Source of the DNA: a phage
Reading direction: 5' to 3' (one strand)
DNA: 30,283 nt
NCBI GenBank assembly: GCA_021534775.1
Contig: GCA_021534775.1_4809.1
The notes under the pieces are model-generated. The model was not told where the DNA came from, did not search any database, and saw nothing but the letters and a program-made list of their open reading frames with translations. Shown here piece by piece: positions 1,636-26,496 of this stretch (its first letter is position 1; each line of letters opens with the position of its first letter). The position numbers were made by a program, and so were the translations under genes.

Positions 1636-1664
1636 AAGGCGCTGAAAAGCGCCTTTACTTTATG
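1636..1664 (+). terminator. Putative intrinsic terminator after tail fibre gene
   Basis: Inverted repeat aaggcgc / gcgcctt with a 6-nt loop, followed by a T-rich tract (tactttat). Confidence 0.45.
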
Positions 1665-1709
1665 CGCTATTAAGTTATACTCATTATACGTTAACAAGTG
1701 AGGTGATTT

Positions 1710-4190: not shown

Positions 4191-4214
4191 AATAATCTCC
4201 TAGTTGGTCGGGCG

Positions 4215-4235
4215 GGTAGCGACCTATTCGCTACC
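4215..4235 (-). promoter_or_regulatory. 5'UTR stem-loop with conserved AAUAGGU loop (copy 1)
   Basis: Arms ggtagcg / cgctacc around a 7-nt loop, between the promoter and RBS of gene 3900-4190. Confidence 0.5.
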
Positions 4236-4257
4236 TCATCCCCTCTCGATATAAAAC

Positions 4258-4286
4258 ATTATAGTCTTAGTGTACGAAGAAGTAAA
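4258..4286 (-). promoter_or_regulatory. Sigma70-like promoter for gene 3900-4190
   Basis: Minus strand reads TTTACT, 17-nt spacer, TATAAT. Confidence 0.55.
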
Positions 4287-4297
4287 GCACTTTTTCG

Positions 4298-4656: not shown

Positions 4657-4684
4657 AGTATACGCGAGTGTACGAAGAAGTAAA
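4657..4684 (-). promoter_or_regulatory. Sigma70-like promoter for gene 4298-4600
   Basis: Minus strand reads TTTACT, 16-nt spacer, TATACT; the upstream part (ctttacttcttcgtacact) is nearly identical to the promoter at 4258-4286. Confidence 0.5.
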
Positions 4685-4728
4685 GAAAAAAGATAAAATA
4701 ATTTATCGCATTTTTATCGAAAAAGTGC

Positions 4729-4756
4729 TTTACTTTTTTCTACACTATATTATAAT
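4729..4756 (+). promoter_or_regulatory. Sigma70-like promoter for gene 4825-5139
   Basis: TTTACT, 16-nt spacer, TATAAT. Confidence 0.55.
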
Positions 4757-6976: not shown

Positions 6977-7341
6977 GCGTATCATGACGTATCATCCGTA
7001 TTGCCGCAAGTCTTTGTTTTTACTTATATCTTACGGATGATACGTTAAATATATAAATTAACATAAGTATGAGGATATGAAAAAAATTAATATAAATGTT
7101 TTTAAAATGGAGTTAATTAATTTTTCGAATTCTATATATAACGATGCTCAGTTTTATCCGTATCATCCGTAAGATTAATGTACAAGCCAGGCGCGGCAAG
7201 GGCTGTACACTCTTACGGATAGAAAACCATGACGTATCATGACGTAAGGGTGTACCACTTTTGAAAATAGGAATCCAGGAACGGCGCGGCCTGCGGCCAT
7301 GATACGCTTAATTTTTAACCGTATTTTAGGCGTATCAAATG
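6977..7341. repeat. Cluster of direct and inverted repeats flanking an AT-rich core
   Basis: Perfect 15-bp inverted repeat cttacggatgatacg (7030-7044) / cgtatcatccgtaag (7159-7173) around an AT-rich segment of about 110 bp. Further copies at 6987-7000 and 7212-7249; GC-rich islets ccaggcgcggcaagggctg and ccaggaacggcgcggcctgcggcc. Confidence 0.65.
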
Positions 7342-21420: not shown

Positions 21421-21579
21421 TGTTGACGTAAATTTACGAAAAATAAAACTGAAAATCAGTTTAATTAAAGTGGCATTGCCGCCATAGTTTTTAGTTGCTA
21501 CTGGCGGCGACTGAAGGCATAATTAAGTTATCCCAAACGGGGAATATAAAATAAACTAATTTATTTAAGGACTGTGAAC

Positions 21580-22419
21580 ATGGCCGAAGCAATCAAAGTA
21601 TTATCCAAAGAAGAAAAACAAGCAGCTGCAGCAGAACGTCGTCGCGTGGCTGAAGAAAAACGCCTGGCTAAAAAGAAAGAAGCCGAAGAAAAACGCCAGA
21701 AGCGTGAGCAGGAAAAACAAGCCAAGCGTGAAGAAGCTGCACTGAAACGCAAGCAGGCCGCTGATGAGAAAGCACAGAAACGTGCTGAAGAAGCAGCGAA
21801 GAAAGCCAAAGAGCGTGCAGAAAAAGCTGCTGCTAAGAAAGCAGAGCGTGAAGCCGCTAAAGCAGCGAAAGAAATCGAAAAGGCAAAGGCTAAAGAAGAA
21901 GCCAAGCGCCTGAAAGCTGAACAAGCTGCTGCTAAGAAAGCAGAGCGTGATCAAGCCCGTGCTGCTGCTAAAGCAGAGAAGGAAAAGGCTAAAGAAGAAG
22001 CGAAAGCCAAACGCAAGGCAGAGCGTGAAGCTGCTAAGATTGCGGCGAAAGAAGCTGCAGAACAGCAGAAAGAACAGCGTAAGCAAGAAGCTGAAGAACG
22101 TCGCAAGGCTATCGCAGAGCGTAAGGCTGCTAAAAAGGCAAACGGTCAGCGTCGTGCAAAAGCTACTCACTTCATCTACACTGGCAACGGCCTGAGCCAG
22201 CCGCAAGAGCATTCCACCCGTGGACGCGTTCTGGCGGCGATCAAAGAAGGCGAAGTTGGCGTGGCGCAGTCTATCGATGAGCTGGGCGAAAAAGTTAAAG
22301 ATCAACTGTTTGGTGCTTCCGTTCGCTCCTACCTGAGCAAGCTGGAAGAGATGGGCCACATCGAGTTTGTCGATGTTGAATCCAACGACGATGCCGAAGA
22401 CGGTGATCAAGCGGAATAA
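21580..22419 (+). CDS. K/E/A-rich charged protein with a globular C-terminal domain (possible winged-helix)
   Basis: About 190 aa of KAEKEAAK-type low-complexity charged helix, then RGRVLAAIKEGEVGVAQSIDELGEKVKDQLFGASVRSYLSKLEEMGHIE; start taken at the ATG with RBS aagga rather than the track GTG at 21574. Confidence 0.65.
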   Translation: MAEAIKVLSKEEKQAAAAERRRVAEEKRLAKKKEAEEKRQKREQEKQAKREEAALKRKQAADEKAQKRAEEAAKKAKERAEKAAAKKAEREAAKAAKEIEKAKAKEEAKRLKAEQAAAKKAERDQARAAAKAEKEKAKEEAKAKRKAEREAAKIAAKEAAEQQKEQRKQEAEERRKAIAERKAAKKANGQRRAKATHFIYTGNGLSQPQEHSTRGRVLAAIKEGEVGVAQSIDELGEKVKDQLFGASVRSYLSKLEEMGHIEFVDVESNDDAEDGDQAE

Positions 22420-22447: not shown

Positions 22448-22475
22448 GACCCACACTTGTTGTGGGTCTTTTTTC
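22448..22475 (+). terminator. Intrinsic terminator
   Basis: gacccacac ttgt tgtgggtc followed by tttttt. Confidence 0.75.
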
Positions 22476-22500
22476 GTCTGTACTAAATAGAAATGACTTG

Positions 22501-22529
22501 TTGCTGTAAAATAATTTAGCTATTATACT
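22501..22529 (+). promoter_or_regulatory. Sigma70-like promoter (TTGCTG, 17 nt, TATACT) for the enzyme operon
   Basis: Lies between the terminator and the ATG at 22560. Confidence 0.5.
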
Positions 22530-22559
22530 TCTCATATCACCCACAAAGGACAAATGAAC

Positions 22560-23549
22560 ATGAAACAACCTGTAATGATTATCGGCGGCGGTTTGGCAGG
22601 ACTTATTACCGCGTGTCACTTCCCGAACTCTATTGTGTACGAAGCAGGGGAGCGAGCGCCACAGCACAAGGCGCTGCTACGCTTTCGCGGCGAAGAAGTA
22701 AGCCGTATTACCGGAATCCCTTTTAAGGCAGTGACAGTTGACAAGGCTGTGTATTTTCGCGGTAACTACTATCACGACCATTGCCCAATCAACCTTGCCA
22801 ATATGTATTCGATGAAGGTCACCAATCAGTTTGGCAGTCGCTCAATCATGAAGCTTAAAGCTGCAACGCGTTATATTGCGCCAGACGACTTCTATGATCA
22901 GCTTGTCGATAAACTGGGGGACCGTATATTCTTTAACACTCCGGTTGACACTCTTTGCGGCTATAGCGAGACGCCAATCATCAACACGTCGCCGCTGCCA
23001 GTTATGATGAAGCTGGCTGGGATTGATCAAAAGCTTGATTTTTCATTTGATAAAGCAAACATTCGTGTTTACCGCTTTAAGATTAAACGTAAGTGTGAGT
23101 TGTATCAGACAATTTACTTCCCTGACTACTCCGTCAGAACTTACCGCGCATCAATCACTGGTGACACACTTATCATCGAAACCATTCCTTTGGTCAGCGT
23201 AAGTGCAGCTGCAGTTGAAGCCGCTGGCGGCATCACTCGTTACCGCGACATGAAGCTTCGCGCAGAAGTCGACGAAGTGTTGACAGCCTTTGGCCTCTCA
23301 TGGAGTGACATTGCTCTTGAAGAAGTTGAAAAGGTCGACCAGAAATATGGCAAGATCGTCGACATTCCGAAGGACTTGCGACACGCCCTACTCCTGCAGC
23401 TGACTATGGATTTGAACGTGTTTAGTGTCGGTCGATTTGCTACCTGGCGCAACATTTTGCTTGATGATGTCGCTCATGACCTTGTTGAAGTTGAAAAACT
23501 CATCAAAGCAAATAACTATCAAAAATTTGCTTATATTGCTAATAAATAA
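22560..23549 (+). CDS. Rossmann-fold FAD/NAD(P)-binding oxidoreductase-like protein
   Basis: N-terminal dinucleotide-binding motif MIIGGGLAGL (GxGxxG); start at ATG 22560 fits the RBS aagga better than the track start at 22554. Confidence 0.65.
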   Translation: MKQPVMIIGGGLAGLITACHFPNSIVYEAGERAPQHKALLRFRGEEVSRITGIPFKAVTVDKAVYFRGNYYHDHCPINLANMYSMKVTNQFGSRSIMKLKAATRYIAPDDFYDQLVDKLGDRIFFNTPVDTLCGYSETPIINTSPLPVMMKLAGIDQKLDFSFDKANIRVYRFKIKRKCELYQTIYFPDYSVRTYRASITGDTLIIETIPLVSVSAAAVEAAGGITRYRDMKLRAEVDEVLTAFGLSWSDIALEEVEKVDQKYGKIVDIPKDLRHALLLQLTMDLNVFSVGRFATWRNILLDDVAHDLVEVEKLIKANNYQKFAYIANK

Positions 23550-23550
23550 T

Positions 23551-23578
23551 TTGCTTTCTGCTTCAATGGGCGTATACT
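23551..23578 (+). promoter_or_regulatory. Sigma70-like promoter (TTGCTT, 16 nt, TATACT) overlapped by an inverted repeat
   Basis: Inverted repeat ctgcttcaatg (23559-23569) / cattgaagcag (23585-23595) brackets the -10. Confidence 0.45.
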
Positions 23579-23614
23579 TTAATCATTGAAGCAGAACTCA
23601 TAGAGGAAACGAAA

Positions 23615-24061
23615 ATGAAACGAATCACTGGAATCGCGCTTGCCGCAACCGCTATTCTCGGCACCATGTATATGGAAGCTACTGAAGCAGCTGTCCGCAC
23701 TTCCGATTCAATCGCTGTGTATGATTGCGAAGCGATGGACGGTAAAACCGCAGCAGCCACTGGCGCAACTATCACGGCTTACATCGGCGTGAACGAGCAA
23801 GAAGGTCTGAATATTCAGATTCAAGGATTCACAGGCAAAGGTGCCAACCGCACTCCTTGGATGCAACGTTTCACTTTCGTTCAGCCTCGTTCAACTGGCG
23901 GCTTTATCAACCTGATTGGTGAAAACCGTTCTGGTGCAGAAATCTTTACATCAATGAGTTCTAATAATGAACCAAAGAAAAGTTTTCAGTTGCTTTATAA
24001 CGCACAATTCGTTTATCATTGCACCTTCTCTGGTGATCAGCAACTAGTAAATTACCGTTAA
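23615..24061 (+). CDS. Putative secreted or periplasmic protein (148 aa)
   Basis: N-terminal signal-peptide-like segment MKRITGIALAATAILG; no lipobox cysteine. Confidence 0.6.
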   Translation: MKRITGIALAATAILGTMYMEATEAAVRTSDSIAVYDCEAMDGKTAAATGATITAYIGVNEQEGLNIQIQGFTGKGANRTPWMQRFTFVQPRSTGGFINLIGENRSGAEIFTSMSSNNEPKKSFQLLYNAQFVYHCTFSGDQQLVNYR

Positions 24062-24074
24062 TAGGATAATTAAA

Positions 24075-24878
24075 ATGAAAGTTGAATTAATTCGATACAC
24101 CCAAGATGCACTTGACCTTCTGCTGGAAACAAAGAACACGCGCATGACTGGTAAGCCTGTCTCTGAGATGACGGAATCAGAGAAGCAAGAGCATTGGCGC
24201 TACATGCTTGACACCATCAAGTCGCCTTTTGACTTTGTGGACTATATCTTTGACATCACCGCTGTATCAAAGAATATGACTCATCAGATGGTACGCACAC
24301 GCACAGGCGCATATCAAGAACGCACCAGCCGCGCTCAGGAATCTTCTGCATTTGATGCGATTCGCCCGAAAGCGTTTGAGTATGACGACCCTGACAGGGT
24401 TATCGGCGAGCGAATCGACGAGCAGCGTTTGAAGTTGGCTAACACCTGGGATGATGCAATGGCAACCATTGATGCCCTATACCAAGAACTTCGCGCGGCT
24501 GGCGCAGAGATTCAGGATGCACGTGCTGTGTTGCCTTCTAATATGCAAACGCATATCATGGCAAAGTTCAACTTGCGCACTCTACAACAAATGGCATCAA
24601 ACCGCTTGTGCACGCGCACTCAAGGCGAATATCAGGAAGTTTTCCGTGCGATGGTAGCGGAAGTCCTCAAGGTGCACCCGTGGGCTAATCCTTTACTACA
24701 GCCGCAATGCATCGGTATGGGTAAGTGCGCATTTCCTCGTCACGGTAAGGCCCATTGCCCATGGTATCGTGGTTGGATGGATACCACTGCACAGCAAGAA
24801 GAGTTGCGCATCCAGTTTTGGAATGCCGCGCCAATCACCAACAATCCAGTTGCTAAAGATGGAGTATCAAAGGGATGA
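24075..24878 (+). CDS. Divergent ThyX-like (flavin-dependent thymidylate synthase family) protein
   Basis: SPFDF...THQMVRTRTGAYQERTSRAQ and ARAVLPSN...NLRTLQQMASNRL match the ThyX signature regions (TPFEH / RHRx7-8S / ARAVLP / NxRxxxxFxxLR as I recall them) but with substitutions at signature positions. Confidence 0.7.
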   Translation: MKVELIRYTQDALDLLLETKNTRMTGKPVSEMTESEKQEHWRYMLDTIKSPFDFVDYIFDITAVSKNMTHQMVRTRTGAYQERTSRAQESSAFDAIRPKAFEYDDPDRVIGERIDEQRLKLANTWDDAMATIDALYQELRAAGAEIQDARAVLPSNMQTHIMAKFNLRTLQQMASNRLCTRTQGEYQEVFRAMVAEVLKVHPWANPLLQPQCIGMGKCAFPRHGKAHCPWYRGWMDTTAQQEELRIQFWNAAPITNNPVAKDGVSKG

Positions 24879-25747
24879 GCATTAAAAACAGTGAAATCTT
24901 AAACGTATTTGACCTTGACGGAACGCTGTTTGATGACCGTTGGCGCTTAGACCGCATCAAGGTGGCAGGACCGCTGTCAGACTACGATGATTATCACTGC
25001 GGCATTGGTTATGATCAGTTCTATCCTAACATTGCATCCGCAGTAGAGGCTGCATCTCTTCGCGGTGAGGCGGTTGAATATTGGACTGCAAGGCCAGAAA
25101 AATACAGACAAGTGACTTTTGAACGTCTGGACAATGTTTTCCCTTTTGATGAATTTACAATCAAGATGAGAGACTCTGGCGACAAACGTCCATCAACTAT
25201 TATGAAGTCTGCATGGCTATCGCACGCATTGCGGCACGGCGATTATCGAATCATCAATGTATTCGACGACCGACAAGACGTACTCGCGCGGATGCAAGAT
25301 GAAGCATTGTATTATAATTCCGTTGCTCAAAATAAAATCGCTTTTACATTTAATCTTTGCAAGGCAGGTGAAGTGGTGCAACAATTAGCAATTGATCCAA
25401 GCGCAACAGGGCAAGAAGAGACTAAGGCTGTGGAAGTTGAACAACCTCCGGCAACCGCTGCTGATATTCTTGATGCGATGGCCGCGACCTTCCGTGAGCG
25501 CAACGCCGTTTATGGCGATAACGCTGTGATGGTAGGTCAGGTTATGCAGGTCCTGTTCCCTAATGGTGTGACGCTGAAAACGCCGGAAGACTACCACATG
25601 TGGCATCTTTTCGAGCTTAAGATTGTCAAGCTTACACGCTTCGCAATCAGCGGCCTGAAGCACGAAGATTCTATACACGACGATGGTGTTTACAGCGCCA
25701 TGTGTGAACGTCTCGTCAACACCCACAATATTAATTTCAATAAATAG
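24875..25747 (+). CDS. HAD-superfamily phosphatase-like domain fused to a C-terminal domain of unknown function
   Basis: Motif I FDLDGTLFD, a Thr in WTARPE, a Lys (MKSAW) and VFDDRQD; C-terminal about 115 aa (RERNAVYGDNAVMVGQV...) is unassigned. ATGA overlap with the ThyX-like gene. Confidence 0.65.
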   Translation: MSIKNSEILNVFDLDGTLFDDRWRLDRIKVAGPLSDYDDYHCGIGYDQFYPNIASAVEAASLRGEAVEYWTARPEKYRQVTFERLDNVFPFDEFTIKMRDSGDKRPSTIMKSAWLSHALRHGDYRIINVFDDRQDVLARMQDEALYYNSVAQNKIAFTFNLCKAGEVVQQLAIDPSATGQEETKAVEVEQPPATAADILDAMAATFRERNAVYGDNAVMVGQVMQVLFPNGVTLKTPEDYHMWHLFELKIVKLTRFAISGLKHEDSIHDDGVYSAMCERLVNTHNINFNK

Positions 25748-25776
25748 TTTACTTGTGCGTTTCGATGAGTTATATT
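25748..25776 (+). promoter_or_regulatory. Sigma70-like promoter (TTTACT, 17 nt, TATATT) overlapped by an inverted repeat
   Basis: Inverted repeat gtttcgatgag (25759-25769) / ctcatcgaaac (25780-25790) brackets the -10. Confidence 0.45.
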
Positions 25777-25812
25777 TATCTCATCGAAACGAAGTCCAAA
25801 AAGGATAAATAA

Positions 25813-26496
25813 ATGAAAAAAGTAATTGTTGTAACTGGCTGCAACTCCGGTCTTGGTAAATCAATTTTTGACACCCTTGGCGCTTACGGTCACGAAGTCG
25901 TCGGAATCGATTTAGACAATGGATATGACATCCGCAATGCTAAACAGATGAAAGAGCTTCTCTCTCAATACGACGTAGAAGGCTTGATCAACTGTGCTGG
26001 CGTCAACTCTAACAACTGGTTTGAAGATGTCAACTACGAAGAGTTCAACCGCGTTATGCACACCAACGCCTTCTCTTTCGTCAACACAACTCAAGCCGCG
26101 CTGAAAAGTCTTATCGACAACAAAGGTTTTGTGATCAACATCGTTTCCAACGCTGCGCATATTCCTATGACGTCCAGCTTGTGTTATAATGCATCCAAGG
26201 CCGCTGCACTGATGATCAGCAAGCAGATGGCCCACGAGCTTACGCCTAAGTACGGCATCACGGTATTCTCTATTAGTCCTAACAAGTTGCGCGGCACTGG
26301 TATGTCTAAGCAGATTGAAGATGCTGTTTGTGCGACTCGCGGCTGGACTCCTGAATACGCCGCTGAATACCAGAAAAAGGCGTTGATGAATGGATTGGAG
26401 ACTGAGCCGCAAGTAATTGCTGACTTCATTCGCCATATCTTAATTACGGGCGCATGGCGCTTTATGTCTGGGACTGATATTCCATTTGGGAAATAA
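25813..26496 (+). CDS. Short-chain dehydrogenase/reductase (SDR) family oxidoreductase
   Basis: TGCNSGLGK (TGxxxGxG), NAG-like INCAGV, catalytic S...YNASK (YxxxK). Confidence 0.85.
   Translation: MKKVIVVTGCNSGLGKSIFDTLGAYGHEVVGIDLDNGYDIRNAKQMKELLSQYDVEGLINCAGVNSNNWFEDVNYEEFNRVMHTNAFSFVNTTQAALKSLIDNKGFVINIVSNAAHIPMTSSLCYNASKAAALMISKQMAHELTPKYGITVFSISPNKLRGTGMSKQIEDAVCATRGWTPEYAAEYQKKALMNGLETEPQVIADFIRHILITGAWRFMSGTDIPFGK

What the first reader, a model, noticed from the sequence alone, without database searches (positions are those of the whole stretch)
23551..23595. Promoter bracketed by an 11-bp inverted repeat upstream of the secreted-protein gene
A TTGCTT / TATACT promoter is embedded in the perfect inverted repeat ctgcttcaatg ... 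cattgaagcag, with the -10 in the loop. This is an operator-like arrangement suggesting repression by a dimeric regulator, or an RNA hairpin in the leader.
Basis: seen in the sequence. Interest (0 to 1): 0.4.

Follow-up and report, generated by a model that had tools for sequence, protein, structure and literature searches.

The report
Phage promoter nested in a stem-loop
This is a host-type phage promoter wrapped in a perfect 13-bp inverted repeat, at the front edge of a genus-specific inserted gene in a Wifcevirus coliphage; it resembles the promoter/stem-loop cassettes (PeSLs) known from T4-like phages and is of modest interest.

Summary
A perfect inverted repeat, 13 nt rather than 11 (23556-23568 / 23584-23596, 15-nt loop), brackets TATACT (23573-23578), and TTGCTT (23551-23556) abuts its 5' arm. 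No repeat this long appears in 100 shuffles.

The window is a Wifcevirus coliphage. The promoter belongs to a genome-wide sigma70-like family: 26 sites against 4.1 expected, with 16 fully intergenic, most 24-39 nt upstream of a start codon.

Only three of about 18 family promoters have a long repeat straddling the -10. These are this site, a second at 25748-25791, and a third outside the window. All three follow a co-directional gene with no terminator.

The predicted start (about A23585) lies in the 3' arm. RNA made from this promoter therefore cannot form the hairpin; only read-through RNA from the upstream gene can. The hairpin is not a canonical terminator and does not bury the ribosome-binding site.

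Distant relatives carry different lineage-specific genes in this slot, each preceded by a promoter plus hairpin. The 148-aa gene is a genus-restricted ORFan.

The closest known kind is the PeSL composite promoter/attenuator cassette. An operator role is not excluded but has only marginal support. No covariation test was possible because the element is invariant across the genus.

The parts
22554..23549 (+). Upstream gene: a 331-aa flavoprotein-like protein (phrog_4828; annotated 'UDP-galactopyranose mutase' in phage Mansfield). Transcripts reading out of it cross the element, and no terminator lies between them.
   Evidence: the terminator scan lists nothing between 22468 and 27474 on the + strand that has a U-tract
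23493..23550 (+). AT-rich tract upstream of the -35 (23500-23549 is 80% A+T). It is invariant in 15 genomes even though it is the 3' end of a coding sequence, and it is UP-element-like. It contains a second ATTTGCTT (23525-23532) and its complement AAGCAAAT (23506-23513).
   Evidence: P(0 variable of 57 at the background rate) = 1.7e-5
23551..23556 (+). -35 hexamer TTGCTT
   Evidence: TTGCTT is the -35 hexamer in 8 of the 26 family sites
23556..23568 (+). 5' arm of the inverted repeat, TTCTGCTTCAATG (about -30 to -18 relative to the predicted start)
23569..23583 (+). 15-nt loop. The two substitutions inside the hairpin among validated genus genomes fall here, both in TH35: G23569A, which turns a G.U closing pair with T23583 into A-U, and C23571A.
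23573..23578 (+). -10 hexamer TATACT
23584..23596 (+). 3' arm CATTGAAGCAGAA. It contains the predicted transcription start A23585, within the TCAT motif at 23583-23586.
   Evidence: 14 of 18 family promoters have A seven nt after the -10; 5 of 18 have TCAT there, against 0.3 expected
23602..23617 (+). Shine-Dalgarno AGAGGA and start codon ATG (23615) of the 148-aa gene. This region is not inside the stem.
23615..24061 (+). Downstream gene: a 148-aa protein with an N-terminal signal-peptide-like segment. It is a genus-restricted ORFan, followed 13 nt later by thyX.
25748..25791 (+). Second instance of the same design (site B). It has -35 TTTACT (25748-25753), arms CGTTTCGATGAG / CTCATCGAAACG (25758-25769 / 25780-25791, extendable to 15 nt with one T.T mismatch), and -10 TATATT (25771-25776) at the apex. 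It lies upstream of the short-chain dehydrogenase gene (ATG at 25813).

Best explanation
The element is a composite promoter/stem-loop cassette of the PeSL type.

(1) It contains a host-RNA-polymerase (sigma70) promoter: an AT-rich upstream tract, TTGCTT, a 16-nt spacer and TATACT, with the start near A23585. This promoter drives the 148-aa ORFan, thyX and the phosphatase gene.

(2) A 13-bp stem-loop is laid over the promoter, with arms at about -30..-18 and -2..+12. Because the start falls in the 3' arm, the hairpin exists only in RNA that reads through from the upstream flavoprotein gene.

(3) In that read-through RNA the hairpin forms 7 nt after the stop codon. It most likely attenuates read-through or acts as a 3'-end barrier, insulating the upstream unit, while the promoter re-initiates downstream.

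(4) The element marks the 5' edge of a slot in which related phages carry different inserted genes. It therefore also behaves as the boundary of a portable gene cassette.

Shown here: the repeat, membership of the promoter family, conservation, recurrence of the design, and the variable slot. Inferred: the start position. Not shown: what the hairpin does to the RNA.
For: Promoter: the family is enriched about 6-fold over shuffles. Of the 26 sites, 16 are fully intergenic and most of those end 24-39 nt upstream of a same-strand ATG; site A ends 37 nt upstream. The tract upstream of the -35 is 80% A+T.

Related PB1-like phage 14-1 has 26 experimentally mapped sigma70-like promoters and short, overlapping transcription units (PMC10914365).

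Recurrence: 3 of the 5 perfect hairpins of 12 nt or more in the 68.5-kb genome straddle the -10 of a family promoter (P = 5e-6 genome-wide, 0.019 within intergenic DNA). All three follow a co-directional gene with no terminator.

Structure rather than sequence: the arms of sites A and C are unrelated. Relatives at 41-53% protein identity have sigma70 promoters with unrelated hairpins at the same junction (WR01, PA1, L024, L026, L028, L072).

Cassette behaviour: marine relatives have the flavoprotein gene abutting thyX. Enterobacterial-phage relatives each have a different insert there. The 148-aa gene occurs only in Wifcevirus. Sister contigs L026 and L028 diverge immediately after their shared -35, and L028 has an extra unit of hairpin/-10, 50-aa ORF and terminator.

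[quoted passage not shown] Both promoter and terminator activities were shown in reporter assays (PMC2839356, PMC4122927).
Against: There is no U-tract after the stem (CTCATAGAGG). The loop is 15 nt, only 5 of 13 pairs are G-C, and the terminator scan does not list the hairpin. Efficient intrinsic termination is therefore not expected from sequence.

No compensatory changes are available. The element is invariant across 29 genomes and no relatives of intermediate divergence were found, so pairing is not demonstrated by covariation.

Only 3 of about 18 promoters carry a long stem, unlike the dozens of conserved PeSLs in RB49/phi1. No indel occurs at this site within the genus. No transcript mapping exists for any Wifcevirus.
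Confidence: 0.5

Rival explanations
1. Operator: a dimeric or tetrameric phage-encoded (or host) regulator binds the two arms on duplex DNA and represses the promoter by occupying -30..-18 and -2..+12. It co-regulates sites A and B in the nucleotide-metabolism cluster.
For: The arms overlap the core promoter and the start. Sites A and B share GYTTCRATG...CATYGAARC, with core centres 22 and 21 bp apart, about two helical turns. These are the only such pairs in the 68.5-kb genome. A near-identical arm (GTTTCGATGAGTT...CTCATCAAAAC) occurs in contig L028, whose flavoprotein is 42% identical, and CTCATCGAAAC alone sits 3 nt after the -10 in L030. This shows sequence conservation beyond what pairing alone requires.
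Against: The A/B similarity is marginal (7 of 9, p about 0.045; 4 of 6 after the shared CAT, p about 0.05). The TCAT part is the start-site motif, found also in three family promoters without any repeat. L030 keeps the 3' element without a complementary 5' arm, which fits a conserved initial-transcribed sequence better than a two-half-site operator. The arms of site C and of relatives at the same junction are unrelated. Perfect 13/13, 12/12 and 14/14 complementarity extending beyond the shared core is more typical of a hairpin than of an operator. The full-arm centre-to-centre distance at A is 28 bp, so the arms are not on one helical face. No transcription regulator is annotated among the 111 CDS of Bas100, although most are hypothetical.
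Confidence: 0.17
2. Isoform-specific translation control, as for T4 gene e and soc. Read-through RNA folds into the hairpin and is poorly translated for the 148-aa gene, while RNA started inside the hairpin is open and well translated.
For: The geometry guarantees two RNA isoforms that differ in the hairpin. At the third site (Bas100, L015 21281-21337) the 3' arm contains the SD AAGGAG. There the SD..AUG opening energy is 20.9 kcal/mol in read-through RNA against 5.1 in promoter-initiated RNA.
Against: At site A the stem ends 6 nt before the SD. The opening energy differs only from 4.5 to 1.5 kcal/mol, much of which is a length effect; site B gives 4.5 against 2.5. Sequestration is therefore not predicted for the element in question.
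Confidence: 0.12
3. RNA processing or stability site. The 13-14-bp helix in the polycistronic read-through RNA is cut by RNase III, or blocks 3' exonucleases after cleavage elsewhere, giving the upstream and downstream cistrons different half-lives.
For: The hairpin is stable (about -20 kcal/mol), sits 7 nt after a stop codon, lies between co-transcribed genes, and has no U-tract. This overlaps with the '3'-end barrier' branch of the best explanation.
Against: The helix is shorter than the roughly two turns typical of RNase III substrates (established knowledge). There is no Rfam match and no data.
Confidence: 0.1
4. The repeat has no role in expression. It is a DNA-level recombination hotspot or scar at a cassette boundary, or a cruciform-prone sequence retained by hitch-hiking within a conserved promoter block.
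For: The whole 117-nt block is conserved, not the arms specifically. L026 and L028 break homology at the promoter/hairpin. The PeSL authors proposed a recombination role.
Against: A perfect 13-bp repeat is very unlikely by chance. The same design occurs three times at promoters. One of the two hairpin substitutions in validated genus genomes improves pairing (G.U to A-U in TH35).
Confidence: 0.08

Closest known systems
PeSLs (promoter-early stem-loops), the composite promoter-terminator cassettes of T4-like phages RB49/phi1, T4/PST and KVP40/nt-1 (Arbiol et al. 2010, PMC2839356; Comeau et al. 2014, PMC4122927)
   Same: Both are intergenic and have an AT-rich tract, sigma70 -35 and -10 boxes, a stem-loop lying within or over the promoter (including the 'overlapping the -10 box' class), and SD plus ATG at the 3' end. 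Both sit in front of ORFans in a variable slot, and homology between related phages breaks at the element.
   Different: The phage lineage is different (Wifcevirus, related to Pbunavirus). There are only three long-stem copies per genome rather than dozens. The stem is A/T-rich (5 of 13 G-C pairs) with a 15-nt loop, not GGGG...CCCC. No indel occurs at this site within the genus. Terminator activity is untested and not predicted by canonical rules.
T4 gene e (lysozyme), soc and I-TevI: a late promoter inside a hairpin that sequesters the ribosome-binding site in early read-through RNA (McPheeters et al. 1986 and later work; recalled from my own knowledge, not checked here)
   Same: A promoter nested in a hairpin, so that locally initiated RNA lacks the 5' arm while read-through RNA folds. 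The third site in this phage family (upstream of the baseplate spike gene) matches this design fully.
   Different: At the site under review the SD and AUG lie outside the stem, and the predicted accessibility difference is small. The promoter is sigma70-type, not a T4 late promoter.
Morons of lambdoid phages: inserted genes carrying their own sigma70 promoter and terminator (Juhala et al. 2000; recalled from my own knowledge)
   Same: A lineage-specific extra gene with its own promoter, inserted between two conserved neighbours (the flavoprotein gene and thyX).
   Different: There is no terminator after the 148-aa gene, and thyX follows 13 nt later, so the insert feeds into the downstream operon. 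The phage is virulent.
Repressor operators that flank or overlap the -10, such as P22 Arc/Mnt operators and P2 C half-sites about two turns apart (recalled from my own knowledge)
   Same: Symmetric sequence elements on either side of the -10, and a core spacing of 21-22 bp at sites A and B.
   Different: No cognate regulator was identified. Complementarity is perfect and extends beyond any shared core. Arms at equivalent sites are unrelated.

Membership tests
PeSL composite promoter/stem-loop cassette | Intergenic sigma70-like -35/-10 promoter with SD and start codon at the 3' end | tested here: met
   TTGCTT-16-TATACT, with SD at 23602-23607 and ATG at 23615. The site belongs to a family enriched 6-fold over shuffles and placed 24-39 nt before start codons.
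PeSL composite promoter/stem-loop cassette | [quoted passage not shown] | tested here: met
   23500-23549 has GC 0.20 and is invariant in 15 genomes.
PeSL composite promoter/stem-loop cassette | Stable stem-loop between the -35 and -10 or overlapping the -10 | tested here: met
   13-bp perfect arms flank the -10. RNA fold -21.6 kcal/mol, DNA fold -11.9 kcal/mol.
PeSL composite promoter/stem-loop cassette | The stem-loop terminates or attenuates transcription from upstream (shown by reporter assay for PeSL211/210) | not testable with these tools
   The sequence lacks a U-tract and is not listed by the terminator scan. A read-through reporter or 3'-end mapping is needed.
PeSL composite promoter/stem-loop cassette | Many conserved copies per genome, concentrated in hyperplastic regions | tested here: not met
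   Only 3 of about 18 family promoters have long stems. The arms of A and C are unrelated, and A and B share only 7 of 9 positions.
PeSL composite promoter/stem-loop cassette | Flanks ORFans that are inserted, deleted or replaced between related phages | tested here: inconclusive
   Met between genera: the slot is variable, the ORFan is genus-restricted, and L026/L028 differ by a cassette at this position. Not met within the genus: all 29 genomes carry the same element and gene.
Repressor operator | Palindromic half-sites overlapping the core promoter | tested here: met
   The arms lie at about -30..-18 and -2..+12.
Repressor operator | The same half-site sequence recurs at co-regulated promoters | tested here: inconclusive
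   A and B share 7 of 9 positions, p about 0.045. The TCAT portion also occurs in repeat-free promoters. Site C is unrelated.
Repressor operator | A cognate DNA-binding regulator is present | not tested
   None is annotated among the 111 CDS of Bas100, but most are hypothetical. No protein search was made.
Intrinsic (Rho-independent) terminator | G+C-rich stem with a short loop (3-8 nt) | tested here: not met
   5 of 13 pairs are G-C and the loop is 15 nt.
Intrinsic (Rho-independent) terminator | U-tract immediately 3' of the stem | tested here: not met
   The 3' flank is CTCATAGAGG, and the hairpin is absent from the scan output.
T4 gene e / soc-type translational sequestration hairpin with internal promoter | The promoter lies inside the hairpin, so locally initiated RNA lacks the 5' arm | tested here: met
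   The -10 is in the loop and the predicted start A23585 is in the 3' arm. The start position is inferred, not mapped.
T4 gene e / soc-type translational sequestration hairpin with internal promoter | The 3' arm pairs with the SD or start codon | tested here: not met
   The stem ends at 23596 and the SD starts at 23602. Opening energy is 4.5 against 1.5 kcal/mol, compared with 20.9 against 5.1 at site C.
Any curated RNA family (Rfam 15) | Covariance-model match | tested here: not met
   No match at E <= 1 in 23300-26000, and none at gathering score in the whole window.

The most novel reading that the evidence does not exclude
The repeats at 23556-23596 and 25758-25791 are operators for an unidentified regulator encoded by this phage group. 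The regulator would recognise GYTTCRATG-N14/15-CATYGAARC and time expression of the nucleotide-metabolism and DNA-modification-like cluster. The near-identical arm in a contig whose flavoprotein is only 42% identical (L028) would then reflect a conserved regulator-operator pair rather than a hairpin.
Probability: 0.15. Interest if true: 0.4.

Novelty: new member of a known kind. Interest (0 to 1): 0.25.

Why it matters
Wifceviruses are candidate therapeutic and biocontrol coliphages and are reported to replicate unusually fast (statement in PMC11990801). Their transcription has never been mapped.

This analysis gives a testable promoter catalogue of about 18 sigma70-type sites. It identifies three promoters nested in hairpins, a design that produces two RNA isoforms from one junction.

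It also suggests that promoter/stem-loop cassettes, described so far only in T4-like phages, mark gene-insertion slots in the unrelated Wifcevirus/Pbunavirus-like lineage as well.

For the specific element the gain is incremental: an ordinary kind of phage regulatory module, well placed and well conserved.

Tried and rejected
- Covariation test. I aligned 15 genus members and then surveyed all 29. The stem is invariant. The only stem change at site A is a single disruptive substitution in an UNVERIFIED record.
- Search for intermediate-divergence relatives. I used tblastn on the phage collection (29 records at 95% or more, then all below 60%), IMG/VR (4 near-identical loci), and one metagenome scan with a 3-protein profile (62 loci, all at 53% or less except one near-identical contig). 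None were found, so no structure model was built.
- Canonical terminator: rejected, because there is no U-tract and the loop is large.
- Known RNA family: none.
- Recurrence of the arm sequence as a dispersed motif: 17 matches with up to 3 mismatches against 13.4 expected, so there is no family.
- SD sequestration at site A: rejected on opening energies.
- Host transcription-factor boxes (Fur, LexA, CRP/FNR, ArgR, NrdR), compared by eye from memory: no convincing match. This was not a formal test.
- Pfam and PHROG searches of the 148-aa protein: nothing found.
- Literature: no promoter or transcript mapping for Wifcevirus.

Full report
**What is there**

The window is part of a Wifcevirus-type E. 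coli myophage. Twenty-nine GenBank phages match 22500-25000 at 90-96% identity, and one metagenome contig is near-identical.

The reported repeat is real and a little longer than stated. The arms are TTCTGCTTCAATG (23556-23568) and CATTGAAGCAGAA (23584-23596): 13 perfect pairs with a 15-nt loop. TTGCTT (23551-23556) abuts the 5' arm. TATACT (23573-23578) lies in the loop, and the spacer is 16 nt.

The element sits in a 65-nt spacer. It starts 7 nt after the stop codon of a 331-aa flavoprotein-like gene (22554-23549; phrog_4828; annotated 'UDP-galactopyranose mutase' in phage Mansfield). It ends 18 nt before the start codon of a 148-aa gene with a signal-peptide-like N-terminus (23615-24061). 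After that come thyX, a HAD phosphatase/kinase gene, a short-chain dehydrogenase gene and a glyoxalase-fold gene.

**Is it more than chance?**

No perfect hairpin of 13 nt or more with a loop of 24 nt or less arose in 100 shuffles of the window, and only four distinct perfect hairpins of 9 nt or more exist in 30 kb. The RNA fold is -21.6 kcal/mol (z = -2.8 in a 101-nt context). The 53-nt element as DNA folds at -11.9 kcal/mol (z = -6.5).

**Is the promoter credible?**

The generic sigma70 scan misses it because TTGCTT matches TTGACA at only 3 of 6 positions. The phage has its own clear promoter family, TT[GT][AC][CT]N-N16-18-TATA[ACT]T:
- It occurs 26 times in the complete 68.5-kb genome of the closest relative, Bas100, against 4.1 +/- 2.0 in shuffles.
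- Sixteen of the sites lie wholly within the 5.9% of the genome that is intergenic.
- Most of those 16 end 24-39 nt upstream of a start codon on the same strand.

Site A (TTGCTT-16-TATACT, 37 nt from the ATG) is a typical member. The 50 nt upstream of its -35 are 80% A+T.

Fourteen of 18 family promoters have an A seven nt after the -10. Five have TCAT there, against 0.3 expected, and site A is one of them. The predicted start is therefore A23585. In the distantly related PB1-like phage 14-1, 26 sigma70-like promoters were mapped experimentally, and several of those tested were also active in E. coli (PMC10914365). I rate the promoter call at about 0.85. It remains a prediction, because no Wifcevirus transcript mapping exists.

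**Conservation**

In a 15-genome alignment of 2.5 kb, 23493-23609 is the longest conserved block. It has 2 variable columns in 117, against 16-23% variable columns in the flanking genes. The last 57 nt of the upstream coding sequence are invariant (P = 1.7e-5 at the background rate).

All 29 records are at least 96% identical over 23490-23640. The two substitutions inside the hairpin in validated genomes are both in the loop and both in TH35. One of them, G23569A, converts a closing G.U pair into A-U. An UNVERIFIED record has one disruptive stem change.

There are no compensatory pairs, and no relatives of intermediate divergence were found in the phage collection, IMG/VR or the metagenome scan. 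Covariation therefore cannot be used. Because the whole block is conserved, conservation does not single out the arms.

**The design recurs**

Among about 18 family promoters, three have a long repeat straddling the -10:
- Site A.
- Site B in the window: -35 TTTACT at 25748-25753, arms CGTTTCGATGAG / CTCATCGAAACG at 25758-25769 / 25780-25791, and TATATT at the apex. It lies upstream of the dehydrogenase gene.
- Site C, outside the window (Bas100, L015 21281-21337): TTGCTT, then arm ATAGACTCCTTATA, then gatTATAATttgttgatcaga, then arm TATAAGGAGTCTAT, then g-ATG of the baseplate spike gene.

Three of the five perfect hairpins of 12 nt or more in the genome therefore sit on a promoter -10 (P = 5e-6 genome-wide; 0.019 if only intergenic DNA is counted). 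All three promoters are internal: each follows a co-directional gene without a terminator. Promoters that are preceded by canonical terminators, such as the one at 22448-22468, have no such repeat.

**Consequence of the geometry**

The -10 is in the loop and the start is in the 3' arm. RNA initiated at these promoters therefore lacks the 5' arm, and only RNA reading through from the upstream gene can fold.

I computed the energy needed to open SD..AUG in the two isoforms:

| Site | Read-through RNA (kcal/mol) | Promoter-initiated RNA (kcal/mol) |
|---|---|---|
| C | 20.9 | 5.1 |
| A | 4.5 | 1.5 |
| B | 4.5 | 2.5 |

At site C the 3' arm contains the SD, and the design matches the one known from T4 gene e and soc. 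At sites A and B the hairpin ends 6-9 nt before the SD, so translational masking is not the likely role there.

The hairpin is also not a canonical terminator. There is no U-tract, the loop is 15 nt, 5 of 13 pairs are G-C, and the scan does not list it. It matches no Rfam family.

**Operator or structure?**

Sites A and B share GYTTCRATG...CATYGAARC with core centres 22 and 21 bp apart. That geometry would suit a protein binding one face of the helix.

The similarity is marginal, however: 7 of 9 positions, p about 0.045, found post hoc. Its TCAT part is the start-site motif, which three promoters without any repeat also share. The arms of site C are unrelated.

Outgroups at 41-53% protein identity also have sigma70 promoters overlapped by hairpins at the same junction, with unrelated arms:
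- Serratia WR01: ATGGCGCT/AGCGCCAT
- Pantoea PA1 and L024: GCTCA/TGAGC
- L026: GGTCTGATT/AATCAGACC
- L072: ATTCGACGGGTC/GACCCGTCGAAT

This favours selection for pairing. Two facts point the other way. L028 carries GTTTCGATGAGTT...CTCATCAAAAC, nearly the site-B arms, although it is only 42% identical in the neighbouring protein. L030 carries CTCATCGAAAC 3 nt after its -10 with no complementary 5' arm. The L030 case suggests that the 3' arm is a conserved initial-transcribed sequence to which a 5' complement is added. It does not rule out a protein site. I give the operator reading about 0.17.

**A cassette boundary**

In marine relatives the flavoprotein gene abuts or overlaps thyX. In the enterobacterial-phage relatives a different gene occupies the slot in each lineage. 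The 148-aa gene occurs only in the 29 Wifcevirus records and has no Pfam or PHROG family.

Sister contigs L026 and L028 are 89% identical up to and including the -35 (tagtgcTTGACG) and then diverge. L028 has an extra unit consisting of a repeat-wrapped -10, a leader, a 50-aa ORF and a terminator, after which homology resumes.

**Comparison with what is known**

[quoted passage not shown] PeSLs were shown by reporter assays to act as promoters and as terminators/attenuators, and were proposed to mediate modular shuffling of ORFans (PMC2839356, PMC4122927).

Four anatomical and contextual features are met here, the last only in part: the promoter, the AT tract, the stem-loop position, and association with a variable ORFan slot (seen between genera only).

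Two features are not met: many conserved copies per genome, and indels at the site among close relatives. Terminator activity cannot be tested with these tools and is not predicted by canonical rules.

I therefore describe the element as working like a PeSL and file it as a new member of that kind in another phage lineage. This is not a demonstrated PeSL.

**Verdict**

The most likely mechanism (confidence about 0.5) has two parts. A host-type promoter re-initiates transcription for the 148-aa ORFan-thyX unit. The overlapping stem-loop forms only in read-through RNA from the upstream gene, where it attenuates read-through or caps that RNA.

Interest is modest. This is a tidy example of a known design in an unstudied but practically relevant phage genus.

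Noticed in passing
L015:21281-21337 (Bas100; outside the window): A TTGCTT-17-TATAAT promoter lies inside a 14-16-bp hairpin whose 3' arm contains the SD AAGGAG of the baseplate-spike gene. The SD..AUG opening energy is 20.9 kcal/mol in read-through RNA against 5.1 in promoter-initiated RNA. This matches the T4 gene e / soc design and is invariant in the 7 genus members I checked, apart from one inner-pair change in Eco4M-7 and one loop change in the UNVERIFIED record ECP_WGS_SA1.
   Followed up: partly
window 25748-25791: A second promoter is wrapped in an inverted repeat (TTTACT, CGTTTCGATGAG, apex TATATT, CTCATCGAAACG), upstream of the short-chain dehydrogenase gene. Nearly the same arms occur in metagenome contig L028 at a different gene junction.
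   Followed up: partly
window 6990-7171: Three copies of TATCATCCGTA (6990 +, 7032 -, 7161 +; 0.46 expected) flank an extremely AT-rich stretch at 7046-7140. A related GATACGGAT/ATCCGTATC hairpin lies upstream of the head protease gene in Bas100 (L015 6813-6860). These are possibly an origin or a regulator-binding array.
   Followed up: no
window 24330-24480 (inside thyX): There is a hypervariable, indel-bearing block among Wifceviruses: up to 53 of 60 columns vary, and annotated thyX lengths are 774, 804, 810 or 831 nt in different isolates. The rest of the gene is about 93% identical, so this looks like a mosaic replacement inside an essential-looking enzyme gene.
   Followed up: no
window 22554-23549 to 24075; loci L021-L084: The flavoprotein-like gene (phrog_4828, no Pfam hit) is tightly linked to thyX in 60+ phage and metagenome loci. 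The two genes often overlap by ATGA, and a HAD phosphatase/kinase gene and a short-chain dehydrogenase gene often follow. This is a conserved nucleotide-metabolism or possible DNA-modification module whose chemistry is unknown.
   Followed up: partly
window 1637-1680 and 21470-21523: Terminator hairpins lie immediately upstream of promoters. At 1637-1660 the T-rich tail of GGCGCTgaaaAGCGCC-TTTACTTT doubles as the -35 TTTACT of the next promoter (TTTACT-16-TATACT). This is a second way in which this phage compacts a terminator and a promoter.
   Followed up: no
window 4667-4746 and 4191-4297: A repeated early-promoter module, GTGCTTTACTT(C/T)TT...TACACT, is present in divergent orientation, which produces a 19-nt imperfect inverted repeat. 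A further copy lies in the next spacer.
   Followed up: no
window 21574-22419: A 281-aa protein whose N-terminal two-thirds is a low-complexity Lys/Glu/Ala-rich region (annotated 'TolA protein' in vB_Eco4M-7). It is followed by a strong canonical terminator at 22448-22468.
   Followed up: no
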